Sequence record: MN850621.1
Length of the DNA stretch: 64,000 nt
Reading direction: 5' to 3' (one strand)
Source of the DNA: Escherichia phage dhabil
Shown here: positions 1-7,176 of the stretch, one piece after another
Layout: every line of letters begins with the position of its first letter
How positions within the stretch are numbered: position 1 is the stretch's first letter
Notes under the pieces: generated by a model
What the model was told of the DNA's origin: nothing
Database searches by the model: none
Seen by the model: the letters and a program-made list of their open reading frames with translations, nothing else
Made by a program: the position numbers and the translations under genes

Positions 1-76
1 CTTTAGACCGGCAATATGAATCATACTTTTTATAATAGGCCATCTCAGTATTATAACGTGGGTGTCTATCAGCCAT
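1..76 (-). CDS. hypothetical protein, N-terminal fragment (ATG at 74-76, continues past window start)
   Basis: Minus-strand ATG at 74-76 opens a frame (MADRHPRYNTEMAYYKKYDSYCRSK...) that runs off the window; no clear RBS. Confidence 0.25.
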   Translation of the reverse strand, partial: MADRHPRYNTEMAYYKKYDSYCRSK

Positions 77-150
77 AATAATACTTAACGGCCAACCTTT
101 GGCATAATCGCGAAGACCGTTTATTTTATGAATGTATCTTTTCTTTAATT

Positions 151-375
151 TTAGCATGAGCTTGGGTACCAGATTTTACCATCGGAGCGAGCAACGAAGG
201 TACGACCAGCTTCTTCACCATAACAAGAGCTATTCAGCCAATCTTCAAGACGAACTTCACCATCATAATCATCAAGCTCAACACCAAAATCCTGAGCAGA
301 AGCCATATCTTTTACTTTCTTATACAGCGCAGCCAGTTCAAGAGCTGCTTTTTCTAATTCATTAATATTAGACAT
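151..375 (-). CDS. small acidic protein, member E of 5-gene paralogous array (74 aa, ends ...KIWYPSSC)
   Basis: ORF track; tight tandem spacing with upstream paralog (stop TAA inside the TAAGGTGATAAA-ATG RBS); C-terminal W-x-x-S-S-C tail shared with four neighbours. Confidence 0.6.
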   Translation of the reverse strand: MSNINELEKAALELAALYKKVKDMASAQDFGVELDDYDGEVRLEDWLNSSCYGEEAGRTFVARSDGKIWYPSSC

Positions 376-384
376 TTTATCACC

Positions 385-597
385 TTAGCAAGACATAGAG
401 GATGTAAACCAGAAACCTTCACCATCTGGGATACCGTAATCATCACGGACCCATTCGTAATCATCATATTCCGGATTCTTTGGGGAAATGTATTGTCCAC
501 GGCCGGAAACATGGAACTCTTCACCTGTTTCGTCAGCCACGGACTGACCTTTACGTACTAATTCACGGATTTGTTTTTCAATTTCATCAATAGTCAT
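385..597 (-). CDS. small acidic protein, member D of paralogous array (70 aa, ends ...FWFTSSMSC)
   Basis: ORF track; 9-10 nt gaps to neighbours; upstream gene stop sits in TGC-TAA-GGT-AAT-AAA-ATG; conserved C-terminal tail. Confidence 0.6.
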   Translation of the reverse strand: MTIDEIEKQIRELVRKGQSVADETGEEFHVSGRGQYISPKNPEYDDYEWVRDDYGIPDGEGFWFTSSMSC

Positions 598-606
598 TTT
601 ATTACC

Positions 607-804
607 TTAGCATTCGTAAGAGGAGGACACCCAAGAGGTACCACTAATAGTAATACAACCGTTATAAAGCGTTATATGTCGTTCTAAGTCACGAGCACCA
701 TCAATATAGATATCAGCTTCTTCGCGTTCTTCTTTACAAATTTGAATAACGTTTTCAATTGCCGCAGCGGCAGTTCGGATTGCACAATCTAATTCACGAG
801 ACAT
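607..804 (-). CDS. small acidic protein, member C of paralogous array (65 aa, ends ...SWVSSSYEC)
   Basis: ORF track; RBS GGA overlapping upstream stop (TGT-TAA-GGA-AAT-ATT-ATG); conserved WVSSS-x-E-C tail. Confidence 0.6.
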   Translation of the reverse strand: MSRELDCAIRTAAAAIENVIQICKEEREEADIYIDGARDLERHITLYNGCITISGTSWVSSSYEC

Positions 805-813
805 AATATTTCC

Positions 814-1095
814 TTAACATTCAGAAGAAGAGGACACCCAACCGCCAGTTGCGAGGTCAGTTGTATAGTCATGAGTATTAACAATAGCCCATTCAGGATG
901 ACCATCTTCTTCCCAATGGGCAAGGTCAGCTTTCAAGGCGCCAGGAGAATAATAGTCACCGCCCATACCGCGAGCAGGGTATATATTAAAATGAGTCTCA
1001 TATTTGTCTGCAATTTCCTCGGCACGACGAATAGCTTCATGAATTTCTTTTACTGCGGCCAGAAGCTCTGGATGGTTATGATTATCATTCATCAT
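814..1095 (-). CDS. small acidic protein, member B of paralogous array (93 aa, ends ...GGWVSSSSEC)
   Basis: ORF track; shares internal EEIADKY...G.DYY.PG block with member A and the C-terminal tail. Confidence 0.65.
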   Translation of the reverse strand: MMNDNHNHPELLAAVKEIHEAIRRAEEIADKYETHFNIYPARGMGGDYYSPGALKADLAHWEEDGHPEWAIVNTHDYTTDLATGGWVSSSSEC

Positions 1096-1104
1096 AGCTT
1101 TTCC

Positions 1105-1395
1105 TTAGCACATTGCCGAAGAGGAGACCCAGGCACCAACTGTAACGACGCCATTTTCAACTTCACCGCCATTGTTTTCAATTTCATCTTTAAACCACTG
1201 GGAGCATTCATAACCAACAGGGTAGTAGGTACGTCCTGAGCCATAATCACCTGTTCCGAATTGAATACCGTACTTATCGGCAATAGCTTCACATTTGGAT
1301 TCGATGATATCTACTTTACCGAGCAGGGCATAGATAGCTTTTTCTGCAGATTTCTCGTCGTTGTATTCAGGGATTTCAATTTCAATTTTATTCAT
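1105..1395 (-). CDS. small acidic protein, member A of paralogous array (96 aa, ends ...GAWVSSSAMC)
   Basis: ORF track; EAIADKYGIQFGTGDYGSGRTYYPVGYEC block paralogous to member B; conserved C-terminal tail. Confidence 0.65.
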   Translation of the reverse strand: MNKIEIEIPEYNDEKSAEKAIYALLGKVDIIESKCEAIADKYGIQFGTGDYGSGRTYYPVGYECSQWFKDEIENNGGEVENGVVTVGAWVSSSAMC

Positions 1396-1745
1396 GATTT
1401 ACATTCCTTAATAAAGGTTTCAAGGTCATTACGTTTGGTTTGTTTTACATACTCATTATAATTAGCCATCTCTAAAGCATATCTCTTACGGATGGGAGCA
1501 TTCAAAGCATTTGTATGGCAAATATCATACACGAGAGGGATAAAATAAGCCACGACAGCCGGAGCAATTATCATATAGAAACCCATCTCAATAGGCATGA
1601 CTCCTTCGATTGCAGCCATAACTGTGGTCATTACCAGACCAACCAGACCGCCGAGCATACCTGTGACAATTCCCGTGAATAAGGAAATAGCAATATCATA
1701 TTCAGCCAATTGATAAACATGCGATGAAAGACTAGGCCGTTCCAT
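1392..1745 (-). CDS. small integral membrane protein (about 117 aa from Met at 1745)
   Basis: ORF track; RBS AAGAGG 7 nt before ATG at 1743-1745; hydrophobic stretches (GIVTGMLGGLVGLVMTTVMAAI, YMIIAPAVVAYFIPLV) look like TM helices. Confidence 0.55.
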   Translation of the reverse strand: MERPSLSSHVYQLAEYDIAISLFTGIVTGMLGGLVGLVMTTVMAAIEGVMPIEMGFYMIIAPAVVAYFIPLVYDICHTNALNAPIRKRYALEMANYNEYVKQTKRNDLETFIKECKS

Positions 1746-2274
1746 TTTGGACCTCTTTAGCGTATTCACGGCATTCAGCAATAAAGCGATTAAGCTTCCG
1801 TTGTTGTTTACGACTTTCTAATGTGTACTCAGCAGTTAAGATACCAAGCTCGGCTTTATCATAATTTTTAATATCAGTGTAAGATGGTCGACGGTCGACC
1901 ATTCCAAATACATCACCATTTTCTAAAGCCACATAGCATACTAAATGGTAATCATCGTCTGCCATATTAAGAAGCACGCAATCATTGCTCTCATTTAAAG
2001 AATATACTGAATAACGTAGTCCAGCGAATTCCACTCGTTGAATAGCCAGATTTACGTCAATAATTTCCAAAGCATCTTCAAAAGAAAGGTCTTCAGCTAA
2101 AGCAAAAATAAAAGGTAATTTGGTAGTATCGCCACGGCTAGATGTTCTGCTTAAGAAATCGTTTGAATAGCCTAGGTCTTGGCGAATTCTATAAAGAACT
2201 GAATTGGTTTCATGGGAAAGACCACTATTTTTAAACCAATCAATATTTGATATAAGGTTATCATATAAACTCAT
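1732..2274 (-). CDS. hypothetical protein (180 aa)
   Basis: ORF track; strong RBS GGAGGAGAGGAG upstream; no family recognised. Confidence 0.55.
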   Translation of the reverse strand: MSLYDNLISNIDWFKNSGLSHETNSVLYRIRQDLGYSNDFLSRTSSRGDTTKLPFIFALAEDLSFEDALEIIDVNLAIQRVEFAGLRYSVYSLNESNDCVLLNMADDDYHLVCYVALENGDVFGMVDRRPSYTDIKNYDKAELGILTAEYTLESRKQQRKLNRFIAECREYAKEVQNGTA

Positions 2275-2295
2275 AATATTCTCCTCTCCTCCAAA

Positions 2296-2315
2296 TAGGG
2301 AGACCGAAGTCTCCC
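2296..2315 (-). terminator. GC hairpin GGGAGAC-TTCG-GTCTCCC (minus-strand sense); weak terminator or RNA-stability element
   Basis: Perfect 7-bp stem with tetraloop directly after the 2323-2916 gene, followed by TATTT. Confidence 0.4.
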
Positions 2316-2322
2316 GGTAATA

Positions 2323-2916
2323 TTACTTAAGTGAATTAATGTAGTCTTCGATATCGGCTGAAGTCGTATCCATTCCAACTTGTGGGCCTTTAAACGTTTC
2401 TACACGCAGCAGGGTATCTTCAATATCAATCTTAGTCAATGCAGCGATTTCAACCACATCATCGGCAGTAGCAATACCAAGGGCAGCCATATTACGAGTT
2501 TCACGAATGTACTCAAGCTTAACCGCTAGTTCCTGGCGAGAGTCATCAAGTTCCTTGACCTTCAGTTTAATTTCATTACGCATTTCGATATAATCGTCTG
2601 CTTTCTTACGAAGTTGATTAGCTGTACGACGATAAAGGAGGCCAAGTTTAGCATGCACCTGGACATCGGCGCCTTCTTTAATCAGTTTACGAATTTCACG
2701 CTCTTTTGAAGCGGCGAGTTGGTCTTTTTCATTCGCTAACTCGCGAATACGTTTTTCTTCATTCACAGACTTAACATGAGCAGTCTGGAGTTCAGTAATT
2801 TTATCAATCAGGGTAGAAGCAGCTTTAGTATACTGGTCTTCGATTGACAGGTTCTGAGTCATTGCGGTACCCAGTTTAGAACGGATGAATTCAACGATTT
2901 TCTTTAAAGTGTTCAT
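2323..2916 (-). CDS. alpha-helical coiled-coil protein (about 197 aa from MNTLKK)
   Basis: ORF track; start moved to ATG at 2916 with RBS GAAGGA, because 2917-2991 carries a promoter; K/E/R/L-rich heptad-like sequence. Confidence 0.55.
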
Positions 2917-2959
2917 AGTATTTCCTTCAGTCGGTTGATATTTTGTAATCCATGAGGAC

Positions 2960-2989
2960 ATTATACCCTGTCCTCTGAGGGTTGTAAAC
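2960..2989 (-). promoter_or_regulatory. early sigma70-type promoter (GTTTAC-N18-TATAAT, minus sense) with hairpin GAGGACA/TGTCCTC around the -10
   Basis: Read on minus strand: GTTTAC AACCCTCAGAGGACAGGG TATAAT; resembles T4 early promoters. Confidence 0.45.
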
Positions 2990-2992
2990 ATT

Positions 2993-3391
2993 TTATTTCA
3001 TTTTTGCTAGGCAAATTTCATTGGCTTCCCATTGAGCTTGCTTAATAATAGCTTTGGATACAGGAACCCTTTGACCATAAGTTTTTGACGTTGAGAGAAC
3101 AATATATTTGTTTGCCTCATTATGCCAACCTAGTGATTTTTCACCATGAGTACCTTTAACCACAGCTGACACCTCAACAGAGCAACCACCATCAGAAATC
3201 TTGGTTTCTACAATCCATTCATTTCTCTCGACAGCTTCAATTTCCGATCTCCTTTTTTCTTCATACATGGCGGCCCAATCAGTTTTTGCCAAGCTGAAAG
3301 TAAGAGCTTTCTCTAATTCTTTGGCAGCTTTTTGTTGTTCAGGCGTTAATGAATTATACAACTCTTGCATTTCTTTATCTTCGATATTCAT
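2993..3391 (-). CDS. hypothetical protein (132 aa)
   Basis: ORF track; RBS GAGGAGA before ATG at 3389-3391. Confidence 0.55.
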
Positions 3392-3416
3392 TATGCTCTC
3401 CTCAAATTACGGGCTC

Positions 3417-3446
3417 ATAATATCTCAATCATGAGCCCGTGTAAAC
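3417..3446 (-). promoter_or_regulatory. early promoter (GTTTAC-N18-TATTAT) inside hairpin ACGGGCTCAT...ATGAGCCCGT
   Basis: Minus sense: GTTTAC ACGGGCTCATGATTGAGA TATTAT; 10-bp inverted repeat encloses the -10. Confidence 0.4.
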
Positions 3447-3448
3447 AA

Positions 3449-3712
3449 TTATTTCATATTATTGAAATAATCTTCCGCATCAAAATCGTTATCGTGATAA
3501 ACTTTGGTAGACAATTTGACGTACCCTTCGGCAGCAAACATATTAACCACAACCTTTACGGTATACCACTGTCCATCGTCATTACCCATTACTGCGTAGG
3601 TTTCAAATATGGGATGGTCATCACCTATAACCTTAATATCGTTAACAGTAGCACCAAATTCTTCAGGAACGCATTTCATAAAGAAATTAAACAATTCACC
3701 ATAATTATCCAT
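3449..3712 (-). CDS. small acidic hypothetical protein (about 87 aa from MDNYGELF)
   Basis: ORF track uses a GTG start at 3727; ATG at 3710-3712 has RBS GAAGGAGAG and is preferred. Confidence 0.5.
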   Translation of the reverse strand: MDNYGELFNFFMKCVPEEFGATVNDIKVIGDDHPIFETYAVMGNDDGQWYTVKVVVNMFAAEGYVKLSTKVYHDNDFDAEDYFNNMK

Positions 3713-3747
3713 TTTACTCTCCTTCACTCTGTTGTTTTGATAGGTCT

Positions 3748-3776
3748 ATAGTATCACGTTTAAAGGAGGTGTAAAC
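3748..3776 (-). promoter_or_regulatory. early promoter (GTTTAC/TTTACA -35, TACTAT -10)
   Basis: One of three near-identical copies of ...TTTACA-N16/17-TACTATAG(G/A)CCTATCAAAA (also at 5902 and 6253). Confidence 0.5.
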
Positions 3777-3807
3777 AACTTTGTGAAATTATTTTTAGTT
3801 TAAACCC

Positions 3808-3829
3808 CCTAAAAGGAGACCGAAGTCTC
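3808..3829 (-). terminator. intrinsic terminator GGAGAC-TTCG-GTCTCC + TTTT (minus sense)
   Basis: Hairpin followed by TTTTAGGGGG, directly after the 3836-4459 gene. Confidence 0.5.
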
Positions 3830-3835
3830 CTTTCA

Positions 3836-4459
3836 TTATTTACGAGTCTTTTCGAACTGAGCTGCGTCACCGGCCAGTCGGCGTGCTTGACGAAGTTTGT
3901 TGTCAATTTCTTCGCGCATAGGCTGGGTGTACTTAAGGCCTTCAACCGTCAGATAGAGACGATAAAGGTCTGGTGTGTCCAGGTTGTTAATGTGTTGACC
4001 GTTACGAAGAACATTGAATTCACGAACAAGGTGTTTAGTTTCGGATTCTATTTCAGAAACCAAAGAAGCCAGTTGGTTATATTTTTTAACAATAGTGCTG
4101 GTGTCGAACTTGATTTTAGGTTTAGGAGCTTCTTTTACAGGCTCTGCTTTAGGTGCTGCCGCAGGTTTAGGTGGTGCAACTTTGGTTGGGGCTGCAGGTT
4201 TAGCAACAGGAGCTTTAGCTGGTTTAGCAGGTTTAGTAGCGCCACCGGCTACGATATCTTTAAAAGCTTTGGAAGCTTTGTAATATTCTTTCTGGTTACT
4301 AGTATCAAAACCATACATATCATAAACGTTTTTAAAGAACTCGGTAGTGGTTTTAGTCCCGGAAATTTTATCATAAGCAGCTTGCCACATATCTTTAGTC
4401 ATGCGCACGCTGGCTTCAGTCAGAACGCTTTCGTTCAAAAATTCATTGTAAGTTTTCAT
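3836..4459 (-). CDS. internal head protein, IPIII-like (207 aa) with N-terminal capsid-targeting sequence MKTYNEFLNE
   Basis: N-terminus matches the T4 internal-protein CTS (MKTYQEF-type, L-x-E gp21 cleavage context); Lys/Ala/Pro-rich basic core; T4 IPIII is similar in size. Confidence 0.7.
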   Translation of the reverse strand: MKTYNEFLNESVLTEASVRMTKDMWQAAYDKISGTKTTTEFFKNVYDMYGFDTSNQKEYYKASKAFKDIVAGGATKPAKPAKAPVAKPAAPTKVAPPKPAAAPKAEPVKEAPKPKIKFDTSTIVKKYNQLASLVSEIESETKHLVREFNVLRNGQHINNLDTPDLYRLYLTVEGLKYTQPMREEIDNKLRQARRLAGDAAQFEKTRK

Positions 4460-4499
4460 TATTGTTTCCTGTGTTAATTAACTTATCTATTTATACAAA

Positions 4500-4528
4500 A
4501 AAGGCCCAACCTTTCGGAAGGGCCTTTA
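4500..4528 (-). terminator. intrinsic terminator (GGCCC...GGGCC hairpin + T6, minus sense)
   Basis: Minus sense AAAGGCCCTTCCGAAAGGTTGGGCCTTTTTTG; core identical to the hairpin at 50656-50679. Confidence 0.6.
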
Positions 4529-4529
4529 A

Positions 4530-4694
4530 CCTAGGGTAACCTTGTCGGGGTTCCACCTGCTAGGCAAGTGTTCGGTGCGCCGTTTCAGCTGTGAGATAAG
4601 GGACTTTAAGAGGAACTCATGTACGCCTTAAAGTCGGGTCTTATTCAGGGAACTTCAGTCCGACGACTTACCGGTAGCGACCCGGTTTCTTGTT
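4530..4694 (-). ncRNA. candidate small stable RNA just 3' of tRNA-Arg (position analogous to T4 species 1/2 RNAs)
   Basis: 165-nt non-coding stretch between tRNA-Arg and the terminator, with nested inverted repeats (AAGTCG...CGACTT, CCTAG...CTAGG); no cloverleaf. Confidence 0.3.
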
Positions 4695-4770
4695 TGGTCG
4701 AGACAGTAGGGATCGAACCTACGACCCAGGACTTAGAAGGTCCTTGCTCTTCCTTCTGAGCTATGCCTCG
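4695..4770 (-). tRNA. tRNA-Arg (anticodon UCU), CCA encoded
   Basis: Manual fold: acceptor CGAGGCA/TGTCTCG, D-arm GCTC/GAGC, anticodon stem AGGAC/GTCCT with loop CTTCTAA, T-arm GTAGG-TTCGATC-CCTAC. Confidence 0.8.
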
Positions 4771-4774
4771 TATT

Positions 4775-4849
4775 TGGCGGACATGCATGGATTCGAACCA
4801 TGGACCAATTGATTAACAGTCAACTGCTCTACCACTGAGCTACACATCC
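4775..4849 (-). tRNA. tRNA-Asn (anticodon GUU), CCA encoded
   Basis: Manual fold: acceptor GGATGTG/CATGTCC, D-arm GCTC-AGTGGTA-GAGC, anticodon loop CTGTTAA, T-arm CATGG-TTCGAAT-CCATG. Confidence 0.75.
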
Positions 4850-4853
4850 AAAT

Positions 4854-4927
4854 TGGTGGCCCTGGGTGGAATCGAACCACCATCCAGCGATTATGAGTCG
4901 CTCGCTTGACCGTCCAGCTACAGGGCC
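4854..4927 (-). tRNA. tRNA with CAU anticodon (Met, or Ile if lysidine-modified), CCA encoded
   Basis: Manual fold: acceptor GGCCCTG/CAGGGCC, anticodon stem AGCGA/TCGCT with loop CTCATAA, T-arm GGTGG-TTCGATT-CCACC. Confidence 0.75.
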
Positions 4928-5012
4928 TTAATTCTATTATGAAAGGCTCTTTGAGGGAAGAACCTTTGGTAATAGAGGGTATTAATGATAGAGTAATAAT
5001 ATCACATAATTC

Positions 5013-6292: not shown

Positions 6293-7176
<884 letters not shown>

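What the first reader, a model, noticed from the sequence alone, without database searches (positions are those of the whole stretch)
1392..3727. Block of uncharacterised early genes upstream of the paralog array, including a membrane protein and a coiled-coil protein
Between the IPIII-like gene and the five-gene array lie five ORFs with no family I can name: a small acidic protein (87 aa), a 132-aa protein, a 197-aa coiled-coil protein, a 180-aa protein and a roughly 117-aa membrane protein whose stop overlaps the first array gene. The membrane protein, the 180-aa protein and the array are co-directional and tightly packed, so they are probably co-transcribed and could act together. The region has its own early promoters and hairpins.
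Basis: partly seen in the sequence, partly recalled or inferred. Interest (0 to 1): 0.45.

Follow-up and report, generated by a model that had tools for sequence, protein, structure and literature searches.

The report
T4-type e.8–e.3 early gene cluster
The five "unnamed" genes are the JS98-type phage's copy of phage T4's e.8–e.3 early gene cluster, catalogued but functionally untested; its best-conserved member (e.6) is a phage-encoded relative of the bacterial membrane-repair protein PspA, followed by a small membrane protein.

Summary
Five real minus-strand genes lie at 1392-3712, with three T4-type early promoters and four hairpins. The window is a Dhakavirus, 98.9% identical to Escherichia phage CLB_P2.

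The "no family" reading does not hold:
- The 87-aa protein is T4 e.8 (85% identity).
- The 197-aa coiled-coil protein is T4 e.6 (74%).
- The 117-aa membrane protein is a T4 e.3 homologue.
- The 180-aa protein sits in the e.5 slot and is probably a very divergent e.5.
- The 132-aa protein fills the variable e.7 slot.

None has a tested function. T4 knock-downs of e.2-e.8 show no fitness cost.

The e.6 family is a divergent PspA/IM30 branch. One family member passes Pfam's PspA_IM30 threshold, and fold and profile comparisons agree. A 2021 genome announcement already noted this link.

Proteins encoded just downstream of e.6 share a C-terminal [FY][IV]xxC[RK] motif, or are small membrane proteins.

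My proposed mechanism, which is inferred, is a phage-borne membrane-maintenance module. The link between the membrane protein and the paralog array is positional only. It recurs in four lineages and is absent in three. The array also has its own predicted promoter.

Verdict: ordinary, catalogued genes with one useful lead.

The parts
3810..3835 (-). UUCG-loop hairpin after the upstream internal-protein-like gene. It marks the 5' boundary of the block.
   Evidence: Fold -16.9 kcal/mol, z -3.4. Terminator-like scan hit on the opposite strand.
3748..3776 (-). T4-type early promoter (GTTTACA-N16-TACTAT) for the e.8 homologue.
   Evidence: T4 and RB69 have the same kind of site before e.8.
3449..3712 (-). 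e.8 homologue: 87 aa, acidic (pI 4.2), function unknown.
   Evidence: 85% identity to T4 e.8. phrog_2678, E 4e-52. JS98 annotates it as e.8.
3409..3446 (-). Early promoter (3417-3446) for the 132-aa gene, overlapping a strong 13-bp hairpin (3409-3440) whose loop holds the -10 element.
   Evidence: Fold -21.5 kcal/mol, z -7.7. Conserved in JS98 and CLB_P2.
2993..3391 (-). 132-aa protein in the variable 'e.7 slot'. It has an N-terminal helical part and a C-terminal domain (about residues 52-130) shared with RB32 ORF130c-type proteins. Function unknown.
   Evidence: phrog_8232 E 5e-74 and phrog_6869 E 7e-20. 256 phage records, only 88 of them full length. No similarity to T4 e.7. No PDB or Pfam relative.
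2960..2989 (-). Early promoter (TTTACA-N17-TATAAT, 11 of 12 positions) for the e.6 homologue.
   Evidence: T4 has an equivalent site before e.6.
2323..2916 (-). e.6 homologue: 197 aa, a divergent PspA/IM30 (ESCRT-III superfamily) protein.
   Evidence: 74% identity to T4 e.6. Found in 1110 phage records. AF2 model with alpha0 plus a long hairpin. Vipp1, PspA and CdvB2 are the top Foldseek matches. Family member P0222 passes the Pfam PspA_IM30 cut-off. hhalign against PspA scores about 10 sd above shuffles. PMC7862958.
2298..2315 (-). GGGAGAC-UUCG-GUCUCCC hairpin after e.6. It has a weak U-tract and is probably a leaky terminator or RNA-stabilising element.
   Evidence: -13.4 kcal/mol, not significant against shuffles.
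1732..2274 (-). 180-aa acidic protein in the e.5 slot, specific to Dhakavirus and Gaprivervirus. Its invariant C-terminal helix carries RFIAECREY.
   Evidence: phrog_8788 E 4e-115; weak phrog_2607 (the T4 e.5 family) E 0.009. hhalign local match to T4 e.5, E 1e-4. C-terminal BLASTP match. Only relatives of 74% identity or more among 5.8 billion proteins. AF2 failed, pLDDT 40.
1392..1745 (-). e.3 homologue: 117 aa, two transmembrane helices, and a basic C-terminal tail (cytoplasmic by the positive-inside rule) ending TFIKECKS. The stop overlaps the start of array gene 1.
   Evidence: phrog_2330 E 3e-46, which is T4 e.3's PHROG. BLASTP to T4 e.3 over the full length, E 4e-9. VR7 annotates its 83%-identical copy as e.3. 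Hydropathy.
1455..1481 (-). MotA-type middle-promoter-like site (TATGCTTTA-N12-TATAAT) inside the 3' end of e.3, about 60 nt before the array.
   Evidence: 7 sites in the window against 1.5 expected. Identical in JS98 and CLB_P2. RB69 has an early-type site at the same place.
151..1395 (-). Context: the five-gene paralog array downstream, each product ending W-x-S-S-(x0-2)-C.

Best explanation
SHOWN. The block is the Dhakavirus version of the T4 early cluster e.8 / e.7-slot / e.6 / e.5-slot / e.3. It lies between the tRNA and internal-protein genes and the nudE-e genes. It is transcribed leftward from three sigma-70 early promoters, placed before e.8, the 132-aa gene and e.6. The 180-aa gene, e.3 and the array follow e.6 behind a weak hairpin and are coupled by overlapping stop and start codons.

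HIGHLY LIKELY. e.6 is a divergent member of the PspA/IM30/Vipp1 (ESCRT-III) superfamily. It has an N-terminal cationic amphipathic helix, a long helical hairpin and short C-terminal helices.

INFERRED.
- e.6 binds the inner membrane through its N-terminal helix.
- It polymerises there to stabilise or reseal the membrane and keep the proton-motive force during infection. T-even phages shut off host gene expression (general knowledge), so the host presumably can no longer induce its own psp operon at that stage.
- Threats it could answer include injection damage, superinfection during lysis inhibition, and membrane-attacking abortive-infection effectors.
- The genes that follow e.6 are its partners or targeting factors. 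These are the soluble e.5-slot protein and the 2-TM e.3 (plus e.4 in other phages).
- These partners share a cytoplasmic C-terminal helix with the motif [FY][IV]xxC[RK], which I propose is a common docking peptide, loosely analogous to PspB/PspC with PspA.
- e.8 and the 132-aa protein are separate single-gene early units of unknown role.

My confidence by layer:
- Identity of the cluster: about 0.97.
- e.6 is a PspA homologue: about 0.9.
- Membrane-maintenance role: about 0.45.
- Motif-mediated partnership: about 0.25.
For: Identity:
- Window 98.9% identical to CLB_P2 and 95% to JS98, with JS98 annotation.
- PHROG matches; BLASTP against T4 proteins.
- The same gene order in T4, RB69 and VR7.

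Expression:
- Promoters.
- T4 e.3-e.8 are early RNAs, and all are detected as proteins (PMC9697503 supplement).

e.6 as a PspA homologue:
- AF2 model with pLDDT 75.6: helices 2-18, 25-80, 86-145 and then short helices.
- Foldseek against PDB: the top seven matches are Vipp1/PspA-superfamily entries, followed by further Vipp1 and archaeal CdvB2; 6zvs_A gives TM 0.71 and 3.0 A over 123 columns.
- BFVD: the first hits outside the e.6 family include a 'PspA/IM30 family protein' of an Acinetobacter phage.
- The e.6 profile finds P0222 at E 3e-18 over its full length among 1.84 billion proteins.
- P0222 scores 39.0 bits on Pfam PspA_IM30 against a cut-off of 33.9, and P0220 scores E 1e-4.
- P0222 sits on a T4-like contig beside UvsX and a DnaB-like helicase.
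- The window e.6 against P0222: 27% identity over 167 aa, E 2e-11.
- A profile of remote family members hits Vipp1 and PspA chains in register, 1-146 against 1-147, E 3e-4.
- hhalign of the e.6 family against PspA scores 33.4, aligning residues 1-57 to 1-57. 200 column-shuffled controls give 12.7 +/- 2.0 with a maximum of 21.9.
- Published HHpred probability of 99.9% for an e.6 homologue against PspA 4WHE (PMC7862958).
- The hydrophobic moment of the N-terminal helix is 0.46 against 0.42 for PspA.

Module:
- The gene immediately downstream of e.6 carries [FY][IV]xxC[RK] near its C-terminus in T4, RB69, the window, KMB20, Aes012 and IME-CF2. e.3 and most e.4 copies carry the same or a relaxed form. 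Synonymous sites vary.
- Only 3 of 111 ORFs in the window have the motif, and two of them are these genes.
- The C-terminal segment is invariant in the 180-aa family.
- Small membrane proteins follow e.6 directly in Providencia phage PSTCR6 and on contig L010.
Against: - The window e.6 itself gives no Pfam PspA_IM30 hit even at E 10. The close-homologue profile finds no PspA in the PDB.
- There are no PspB, PspC or PspF homologues. The partnership and the docking role of the motif are untested.
- Part of the motif (AAGGA within F-I-K-E) doubles as the ribosome-binding site of the next gene in some cases.
- T4 knock-downs of e.2-e.8 are all 'Not Fit', meaning no measurable fitness role on a laboratory host (PMC11879866 supplement).
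- VR7 keeps e.4, e.3 and the array but has no e.6 in the 14 kb examined.
- The 180-aa protein could not be modelled.
Confidence: 0.45

Rival explanations
1. The block is simply part of a T4-type hyperplastic accessory region. It would be a row of independent small early genes, each acting alone on a different host target or defence system, exchanged slot by slot between phages, with no joint function even if e.6 is PspA-like.
For: - Slots are replaced between lineages. T4 e.7 is replaced by the 132-aa gene here and by three other genes in RB69. e.5 is replaced by the 180-aa gene here, a 217-aa gene in KMB20, a 288-aa gene in Aes012 and a 271-aa gene in IME-CF2.
- e.8, the 132-aa gene and e.6 each have their own promoter.
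- Known single-gene counter-defence or injected proteins lie nearby: the 57B/Acb1 homologue and the internal proteins (function from general knowledge).
- Knock-downs have no effect on a laboratory strain, which is typical of conditionally useful genes.
Against: - e.6 is far more widely and strongly conserved than its neighbours: 1110 records, with a family length fixed at about 200 aa.
- e.6 is consistently followed by a gene carrying the same C-terminal motif or by small membrane proteins in seven lineages. That is not expected of unrelated cargo.
Confidence: 0.35
2. One reading: the 117-aa membrane protein, the 180-aa protein and the five-gene array form one co-transcribed functional unit. 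For example, the membrane protein could handle, anchor or export the small acidic Cys-terminated array proteins.
For: - The e.3 stop overlaps array gene 1 as ATGA in the window, JS98, RB69 and VR7.
- In the distant Providencia phage PSTCR6, a 2-TM protein directly after e.6 is followed, one nucleotide later, by two array-type genes.
- No promoter was found between the e.6 hairpin and the 180-aa gene.
Against: - T4 has e.3 followed by e.2 and no array in this region.
- In Karamvirus KMB20 the array follows a soluble 217-aa protein.
- In Aeromonas phage Aes012 the array follows nrdD, 2.7 kb away from e.6, with no membrane gene beside it.
- A near-consensus MotA middle promoter inside e.3, or an early-type site in RB69, gives the array its own transcript.
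- Synteny among T4-like phages is largely inherited, so adjacency is weak evidence.
Confidence: 0.15
3. e.6 keeps the PspA fold but does not protect the membrane. It could act as a decoy or dominant-negative that interferes with host PspA, PspF or another coiled-coil partner, or it could tune lysis timing.
For: - It shares the PspA architecture but has a divergent C-terminal third with its own invariant residues such as T174 and F175.
- No Psp partner genes are present.
- The protein accumulates in the middle period in T4.
Against: - By general knowledge, host transcription is largely shut off early in T-even infection, so a regulator mimic would have little to regulate.
- The N-terminal amphipathic helix, which is the membrane-binding element in PspA and Vipp1, is among the best-conserved parts of the family: F10 is invariant, and K5, I11 and K14 are at least 90% conserved.
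Confidence: 0.1

Closest known systems
Phage T4 genes e.8, e.7, e.6, e.5, e.4, e.3 (early cluster between the tRNA genes and nudE/e)
   Same: Same position, orientation and order. e.8 is 85% identical, e.6 is 74% identical, and e.3 is homologous over its full length (same PHROG). Early promoters lie before e.8 and e.6 in both phages. Downstream genes overlap in both. All are of unknown function.
   Different: - The e.7 slot holds an unrelated 132-aa gene with its own promoter.
- The e.5 slot holds a 180-aa protein that shares only short colinear segments and the C-terminal motif with e.5.
- e.4 is absent.
- e.3 is followed by the paralog array instead of e.2.
Bacterial PspA (phage shock protein A) and the Psp system
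   Same: e.6 has the same length class and helix layout. Helix boundaries are within a few residues of those I recall for PspA (from memory, not checked here). It has an N-terminal amphipathic helix followed by an ED motif, and profile similarity in register from residue 1. One e.6-family member passes Pfam PF04012.
   Different: - The window protein itself is below every sequence threshold for PF04012.
- There are no PspB, PspC or PspF homologues.
- It is encoded by a lytic phage under an early promoter rather than a sigma-54 stress promoter.
- The neighbours are phage-specific proteins with their own C-terminal motif.
Vipp1/IM30 and archaeal/eukaryotic ESCRT-III (CdvB2, Snf7)
   Same: These are the best Foldseek matches of the e.6 model, giving a hairpin core TM-score of 0.71 with Vipp1 6zvs.
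Klebsiella phage Metamorpho gp163 (PMC7862958)
   Same: It is an e.6 homologue for which HHpred gave a 99.9% match to PspA 4WHE. This is the only prior statement of the link that I found.
   Different: It is a one-sentence remark in a genome announcement. It covers no context, partners or experiments.

Membership tests
T4 e.8 family (PHROG 2678) | Full-length sequence similarity to T4 e.8 | tested here: met
   85% identity over 87 of 87 residues. phrog_2678 E 4e-52, covering 1-87 of 87.
T4 e.6 family (PHROG 1203) | Full-length sequence similarity to T4 e.6 | tested here: met
   74% identity over 197 of 197 residues. phrog_1203 E 2e-83. Found in 1110 phage records.
T4 e.3 family (PHROG 2330) | Full-length similarity, two transmembrane helices and a basic C-terminal tail | tested here: met
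   phrog_2330 E 3e-46, covering 1-117. BLASTP against T4 e.3 over 1-116 vs 1-117, E 4e-9 against a small database. Hydropathy. Alignment with the e.3 and e.4 proteins of T4, RB69 and VR7.
T4 e.5 family (PHROG 2607) | Significant sequence or profile similarity to e.5 | tested here: inconclusive
   phrog_2607 E 0.009 over 29 residues. hhalign 79-107 vs 83-111, E 1e-4, probability 58%. C-terminal 15-residue BLASTP match, E 0.004. Same slot and same motif. AF2 model unusable.
PspA/IM30 (Pfam PF04012; ESCRT-III superfamily) | The protein itself scores above the Pfam gathering threshold | tested here: not met
   No PF04012 hit for the window e.6 or for any of 32 close homologues, even at E 10.
PspA/IM30 (Pfam PF04012; ESCRT-III superfamily) | Homology chain through intermediate sequences | tested here: met
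   The e.6 profile finds P0222 at E 3e-18 over its full length. P0222 scores 39.0 bits on PF04012 against a cut-off of 33.9. Window e.6 against P0222 gives E 2e-11. A profile of remote members hits Vipp1 and PspA chains in register.
PspA/IM30 (Pfam PF04012; ESCRT-III superfamily) | Profile-profile similarity to PspA beyond composition | tested here: met
   hhalign score 33.4 (P 1.4e-4), aligning residues 1-57 to 1-57. 200 column shuffles give a mean of 12.7, sd 2.0, maximum 21.9; the reversed alignment gives 13.2. The PspA alignment used was shallow (enterobacterial only). Published HHpred 99.9% for a homologue.
PspA/IM30 (Pfam PF04012; ESCRT-III superfamily) | ESCRT-III-type fold: alpha0 amphipathic helix, alpha1-alpha2/3 hairpin, alpha4 and alpha5 | tested here: met
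PspA/IM30 (Pfam PF04012; ESCRT-III superfamily) | Membrane binding and self-assembly into rings or rods | not testable with these tools
   Needs purified protein, liposomes and electron microscopy.
Psp system (PspA with PspB, PspC and PspF) | Presence of PspB/PspC membrane partners or the PspF regulator | tested here: not met
   Neither the 180-aa nor the 117-aa protein has any Pfam or NCBIfam hit to PspB, PspC or PspF. The membrane neighbours are phage-specific.
   Only residues 1-25 align with T4 IPIII (44% identity, E 0.019). It is an internal-protein-like gene by its N-terminus and position only.

The most novel reading that the evidence does not exclude
T4-like phages carry their own Psp-like envelope-maintenance system. 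It would consist of the PspA homologue e.6 plus a changing set of partners: e.5-type soluble proteins and e.3/e.4-type 2-TM proteins. These partners would be recruited through a shared C-terminal [FY][IV]xxC[RK] helix. The system would keep the inner membrane energised after host shut-off, or defeat membrane-depolarising abortive-infection systems. The Cys-terminated array proteins might be further clients of the same membrane module.
Probability: 0.25. Interest if true: 0.65.

Novelty: already known. Interest (0 to 1): 0.35.

Why it matters
Taken as reported, the finding is routine. The genes are identical or nearly identical to catalogued hypothetical genes of JS98-like phages and homologous to T4 ORFs listed since the T4 genome was annotated.

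Its value is as a lead. A PspA-type membrane-repair protein is conserved in more than a thousand T4-like phage genomes. It is expressed from its own promoter and is always followed by motif-bearing or membrane proteins. It has apparently never been studied experimentally.

Studying it could explain how T-even phages keep the host membrane energised through injection damage, superinfection and long lysis inhibition. It could also show whether they use it against membrane-targeting defence systems.

Public annotations could be improved. e.6 is still labelled 'hypothetical' or, wrongly, 'host specificity protein'.

Tried and rejected
- Curated libraries. Pfam, NCBIfam and PADLOC scans of all five proteins gave only sub-threshold noise.
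- PDB by sequence. Searches with e.8, the 132-aa protein and the 180-aa family profile found nothing. The single e.6 sequence and its close-homologue profile found no PspA.
- Pfam on 32 close e.6 homologues gave only coiled-coil noise. The link appeared only with remote family members.
- The afdb50 fold library was unavailable.
- Searching with E. coli PspA returned only homologues of 86% identity or more, so the PspA profile used for hhalign is shallow.
- AF2 of the 180-aa protein failed (pLDDT 40) because its family has only relatives of 74% identity or more. No fold search was possible for it.
- Literature. Full-text searches for e.x gene functions returned nothing specific. The main texts of the HIDEN-SEQ and CRISPRi-ART papers do not mention these genes.
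- A second MotA-box match at 2106 was rejected because its -10 element (TCTTTT) is poor.
- Plus-strand ORFs inside the block, such as 3365-3751, were treated as antisense artefacts. I did not test them: all annotated and homology-supported genes here are on the minus strand.
- The idea that the C-terminal motif is a nucleotide-level recombination linker was rejected because synonymous positions differ between copies.
- Rfam and tRNA scans found only the three tRNAs upstream, with nothing in the block.


Full report
**What the window is.** Bases 1-5000 are 98.9% identical to Escherichia phage CLB_P2 and 95% identical to phage JS98, both of genus Dhakavirus, subfamily Tevenvirinae. All genes in this part run on the minus strand. 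In JS98 the five ORFs of the finding are annotated as orf134 (e.8), orf133, orf132 (e.6), orf131 and orf130. In CLB_P2 they are all 'hypothetical', except the e.6 homologue, which is labelled 'host specificity protein'. The exact sequences of four of the five proteins are already in public databases, always unnamed.

**Check of the observation.** The five ORFs are present. Their likely starts are 3712, 3391, 2916, 2274 and 1745, and each is preceded by a Shine-Dalgarno sequence.
- The products are 87 aa (pI 4.2), 132 aa, 197 aa, 180 aa (pI 4.7) and 117 aa. The last has two hydrophobic segments and a basic C-terminal tail.
- The 180-aa and 117-aa genes overlap by 14 nt. The stop of the 117-aa gene overlaps the ATG of the first array gene (ATGA).
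- Differences from JS98 fall mainly on third codon positions. Each protein has 82 to 1110 full-length matches in phage genomes. They are real genes.
- Three T4-type early promoters (GTTTAC-N17-19-TAnnnT) lie exactly in the intergenic spaces before the 87-, 132- and 197-aa genes. The window has 9 such sites against 3.1 expected.
- Hairpins lie at 3810-3835 (after the upstream gene), 3409-3440 (strong, z -7.7, overlapping the second promoter), 2954-2975 and 2298-2315. The last is a UUCG tetraloop after the 197-aa gene.
- Rfam and ARAGORN find only the three upstream tRNAs.

**What the genes are.** I compared the block with T4 and with PHROG families.
- The 87-aa protein is 85% identical to T4 e.8 (phrog_2678).
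- The 197-aa protein is 74% identical to T4 e.6 (phrog_1203).
- The 117-aa protein aligns over its full length with T4 e.3 (E 4e-9) and belongs to phrog_2330, which is T4 e.3's family. VR7 annotates its 83%-identical copy as e.3.
- e.3 and e.4 are paralogous 2-TM proteins. e.4 is missing here.
- The 180-aa protein occupies the e.5 slot. It has only relatives of 74% identity or more among 5.8 billion proteins, all from Dhakavirus and Gaprivervirus phages.
- The 180-aa protein also shares three colinear traces with T4 e.5: a weak phrog_2607 hit, an hhalign match of 79-107 to 83-111 (E 1e-4), and the C-terminal RFIAECREYAKEV against KFVKECREYVKAI. I treat it as a probable, very divergent e.5.
- The 132-aa protein has no similarity to T4 e.7. 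Its C-terminal domain recurs in RB32 ORF130c-type proteins of other T-even phages at the same position, so the e.7 slot is variable.
- The gene order e.8 ... e.6, e.5, e.4, e.3 is the same in T4 and RB69.

**What is known about them.** A T4 multi-omics study classifies e.3-e.8 as early RNAs. Their proteins appear early (e.4, e.5, e.7, e.8), in the middle period (e.6) or late (e.3) (PMC9697503 supplement). The CRISPRi-ART study lists e.2-e.8 as 'unknown function' with prior essentiality 'UNKNOWN', and finds all knock-downs 'Not Fit' (PMC11879866 supplement).

**e.6 is a PspA/IM30 relative.** e.6 is by far the most widely conserved gene of the block. It occurs in 1110 phage records across Escherichia, Klebsiella, Enterobacter, Serratia, Aeromonas and other hosts. 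An exhaustive HMMER search of 1.84 billion representatives found a compact family of only 46 clusters; the full-length members are all about 200 aa and the rest are fragments.
- *Model.* The AF2 model (pLDDT 75.6) has an N-terminal helix (2-18), a long hairpin (25-80 and 86-145) and short C-terminal helices.
- *Foldseek.* Against the PDB, the top seven matches are Vipp1/PspA-superfamily entries, followed by further Vipp1 and archaeal CdvB2. In BFVD the first hits outside the family include a phage 'PspA/IM30 family protein'.
- *Close homologues.* The window protein and its close homologues give no sequence-level hit to PF04012 or to PspA chains.
- *Remote members.* P0222 is hit by the e.6 profile at E 3e-18 over its full length. 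It is 27% identical to the window protein (E 2e-11). It passes Pfam's PspA_IM30 gathering score (39.0 against 33.9 bits). It is encoded on a T4-like contig next to UvsX and a DnaB-like helicase.
- *Remote profile.* A profile of the remote members hits Vipp1 and PspA chains in register from residue 1.
- *hhalign.* The whole e.6 family against an enterobacterial PspA alignment scores 33.4, aligning 1-57 to 1-57. Column-shuffled controls give 12.7 +/- 2.0.
- *N-terminal helix.* It is as amphipathic as PspA's and is cationic.
- *Prior report.* The genome announcement of Klebsiella phage Metamorpho states that its e.6 homologue aligns with PspA 4WHE at 99.9% in HHpred (PMC7862958). It is the only paper in the library that connects the two.

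**A shared C-terminal motif.** Near the C-terminus, the 180-aa protein carries RFIAECREY and the 117-aa protein carries TFIKECKS.
- The motif or a relaxed form occurs in T4 and RB69 e.5, e.4 and e.3.
- It also occurs in otherwise unrelated proteins encoded immediately after e.6 in Karamvirus KMB20 (217 aa), Aeromonas phage Aes012 (288 aa) and Citrobacter phage IME-CF2 (271 aa).
- Synonymous positions differ between copies, so selection acts on the peptide. In some genes the AAGGA codons also serve as the next gene's ribosome-binding site.
- In the 64-kb window, only 3 of 111 ORFs of 60 aa or more have [FY][IV]xxC[RK] in their last 35 residues. Two of them are these genes.
- The motif region is invariant across the 180-aa family.
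- In Providencia phage PSTCR6 and on the metagenomic contig L010, e.6 is followed directly by small membrane proteins.
- I infer, but have not shown, that these tails dock onto a common partner, most simply e.6.

**The link to the array.** The e.3/array junction (ATGA) is the same in the window, JS98, RB69 and VR7. In PSTCR6 a 2-TM protein precedes two array-type genes by one nucleotide. Against a required link:
- T4 has e.3 followed by e.2 and no array in this region.
- In KMB20 the array follows a soluble protein.
- In Aes012 the array follows nrdD, far from e.6.
- A near-consensus MotA middle promoter (TATGCTTTA-N12-TATAAT, 1455-1481) lies inside e.3, about 60 nt before the array. RB69 has an early-type site at the same place.

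The array family occurs in 366 records. Co-transcription from the e.6 promoter is plausible. A joint function remains possible but is unsupported.

**Mechanism proposed.**
- *Shown:* the cluster's identity, its promoters and the translational coupling.
- *Highly likely:* e.6 is a PspA-superfamily protein.
- *Inferred:* e.6 binds and stabilises the inner membrane during infection, when by general knowledge the host can no longer induce its own psp operon. The e.5-slot protein and e.3 would be partners or targeting factors that act through the shared tail.

e.8 and the 132-aa protein remain small early proteins of unknown role. The main rival is that the region is a mosaic of independent accessory or counter-defence genes.

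**Verdict.** The residual interest lies in an experimentally untouched, very widespread phage PspA homologue and its motif-bearing neighbours.

Noticed in passing
window 151-1395 (-): All five array proteins end in W-x-S-S-(x0-2)-C with Cys as the last residue. They are the only 5 ORFs of 60 aa or more in the window that end this way. The family occurs in 366 phage records. The same ending appears in a distant Providencia phage (GWVSSSEQC, and WLSSSDLCY with one extra terminal residue). The conserved terminal Cys suggests a modification or metal site.
   Followed up: partly
window 1392-1745 and 1732-2274 (-); L003, L005, L004, L006, L007, L008: A C-terminal motif [FY][IV]xxC[RK] is shared by otherwise unrelated proteins encoded downstream of e.6 in six lineages. 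These are the e.5-slot proteins of 180-288 aa; e.3 and most e.4 copies carry it or a relaxed form. Synonymous sites vary, so the constraint is on the peptide.
   Followed up: partly
window 1455-1481 (-): A near-consensus MotA-dependent middle promoter (TATGCTTTA-N12-TATAAT) lies inside the coding sequence of the e.3 homologue, about 60 nt upstream of the array. It is identical in JS98 and CLB_P2. RB69 has an early-type promoter-like site at the equivalent position.
   Followed up: partly
window 3409-3446 (-): A 13-bp perfect hairpin (-21.5 kcal/mol, z -7.7) overlaps the spacer and -10 element of the early promoter of the 132-aa gene. It could end or stabilise the e.8 transcript while sharing sequence with the next promoter. 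JS98 keeps the pairing through paired changes (GGGCCCAT instead of GGGCTCAT).
   Followed up: partly
window 3836-4459 (-) and 4488-4495 (-): The upstream 'IPIII-like' gene resembles T4 internal proteins only in its first 25 residues or so (MKTYNEFLNE, which resembles the capsid-targeting sequence of T4 internal proteins, from general knowledge). It has a Pro/Ala/Lys-rich linker and a late promoter TATAAATA just upstream. It is an internal-protein-like gene, not an IPIII orthologue.
   Followed up: partly
window 6499-6954 (-): This 151-aa protein closely resembles T4 57B when the two translations are compared by eye. By general knowledge 57B is Acb1, the anti-CBASS phosphodiesterase. RefSeq records label it 'RNA ligase'.
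   Followed up: no
window 2917-2991 (-); L002 4323-4961: CLB_P2 and some UniRef entries annotate the e.6 homologue as a 212-aa 'host specificity protein'. That start codon lies inside the -10 element of the e.6 promoter and has no ribosome-binding site, and all other homologues start at MNTLKK. The 197-aa product is the likelier one, and the name looks like an annotation artefact.
   Followed up: partly
window 1732-1745 (-); L004 7001-7014: The window's 180-aa protein and VR7's unrelated e.4 both end in NGTA, because both overlap the same e.3 start (ATGGAACGGCCTAG). The junction upstream of e.3 is kept while the upstream gene is exchanged, a sign of module swapping at gene boundaries.
   Followed up: no
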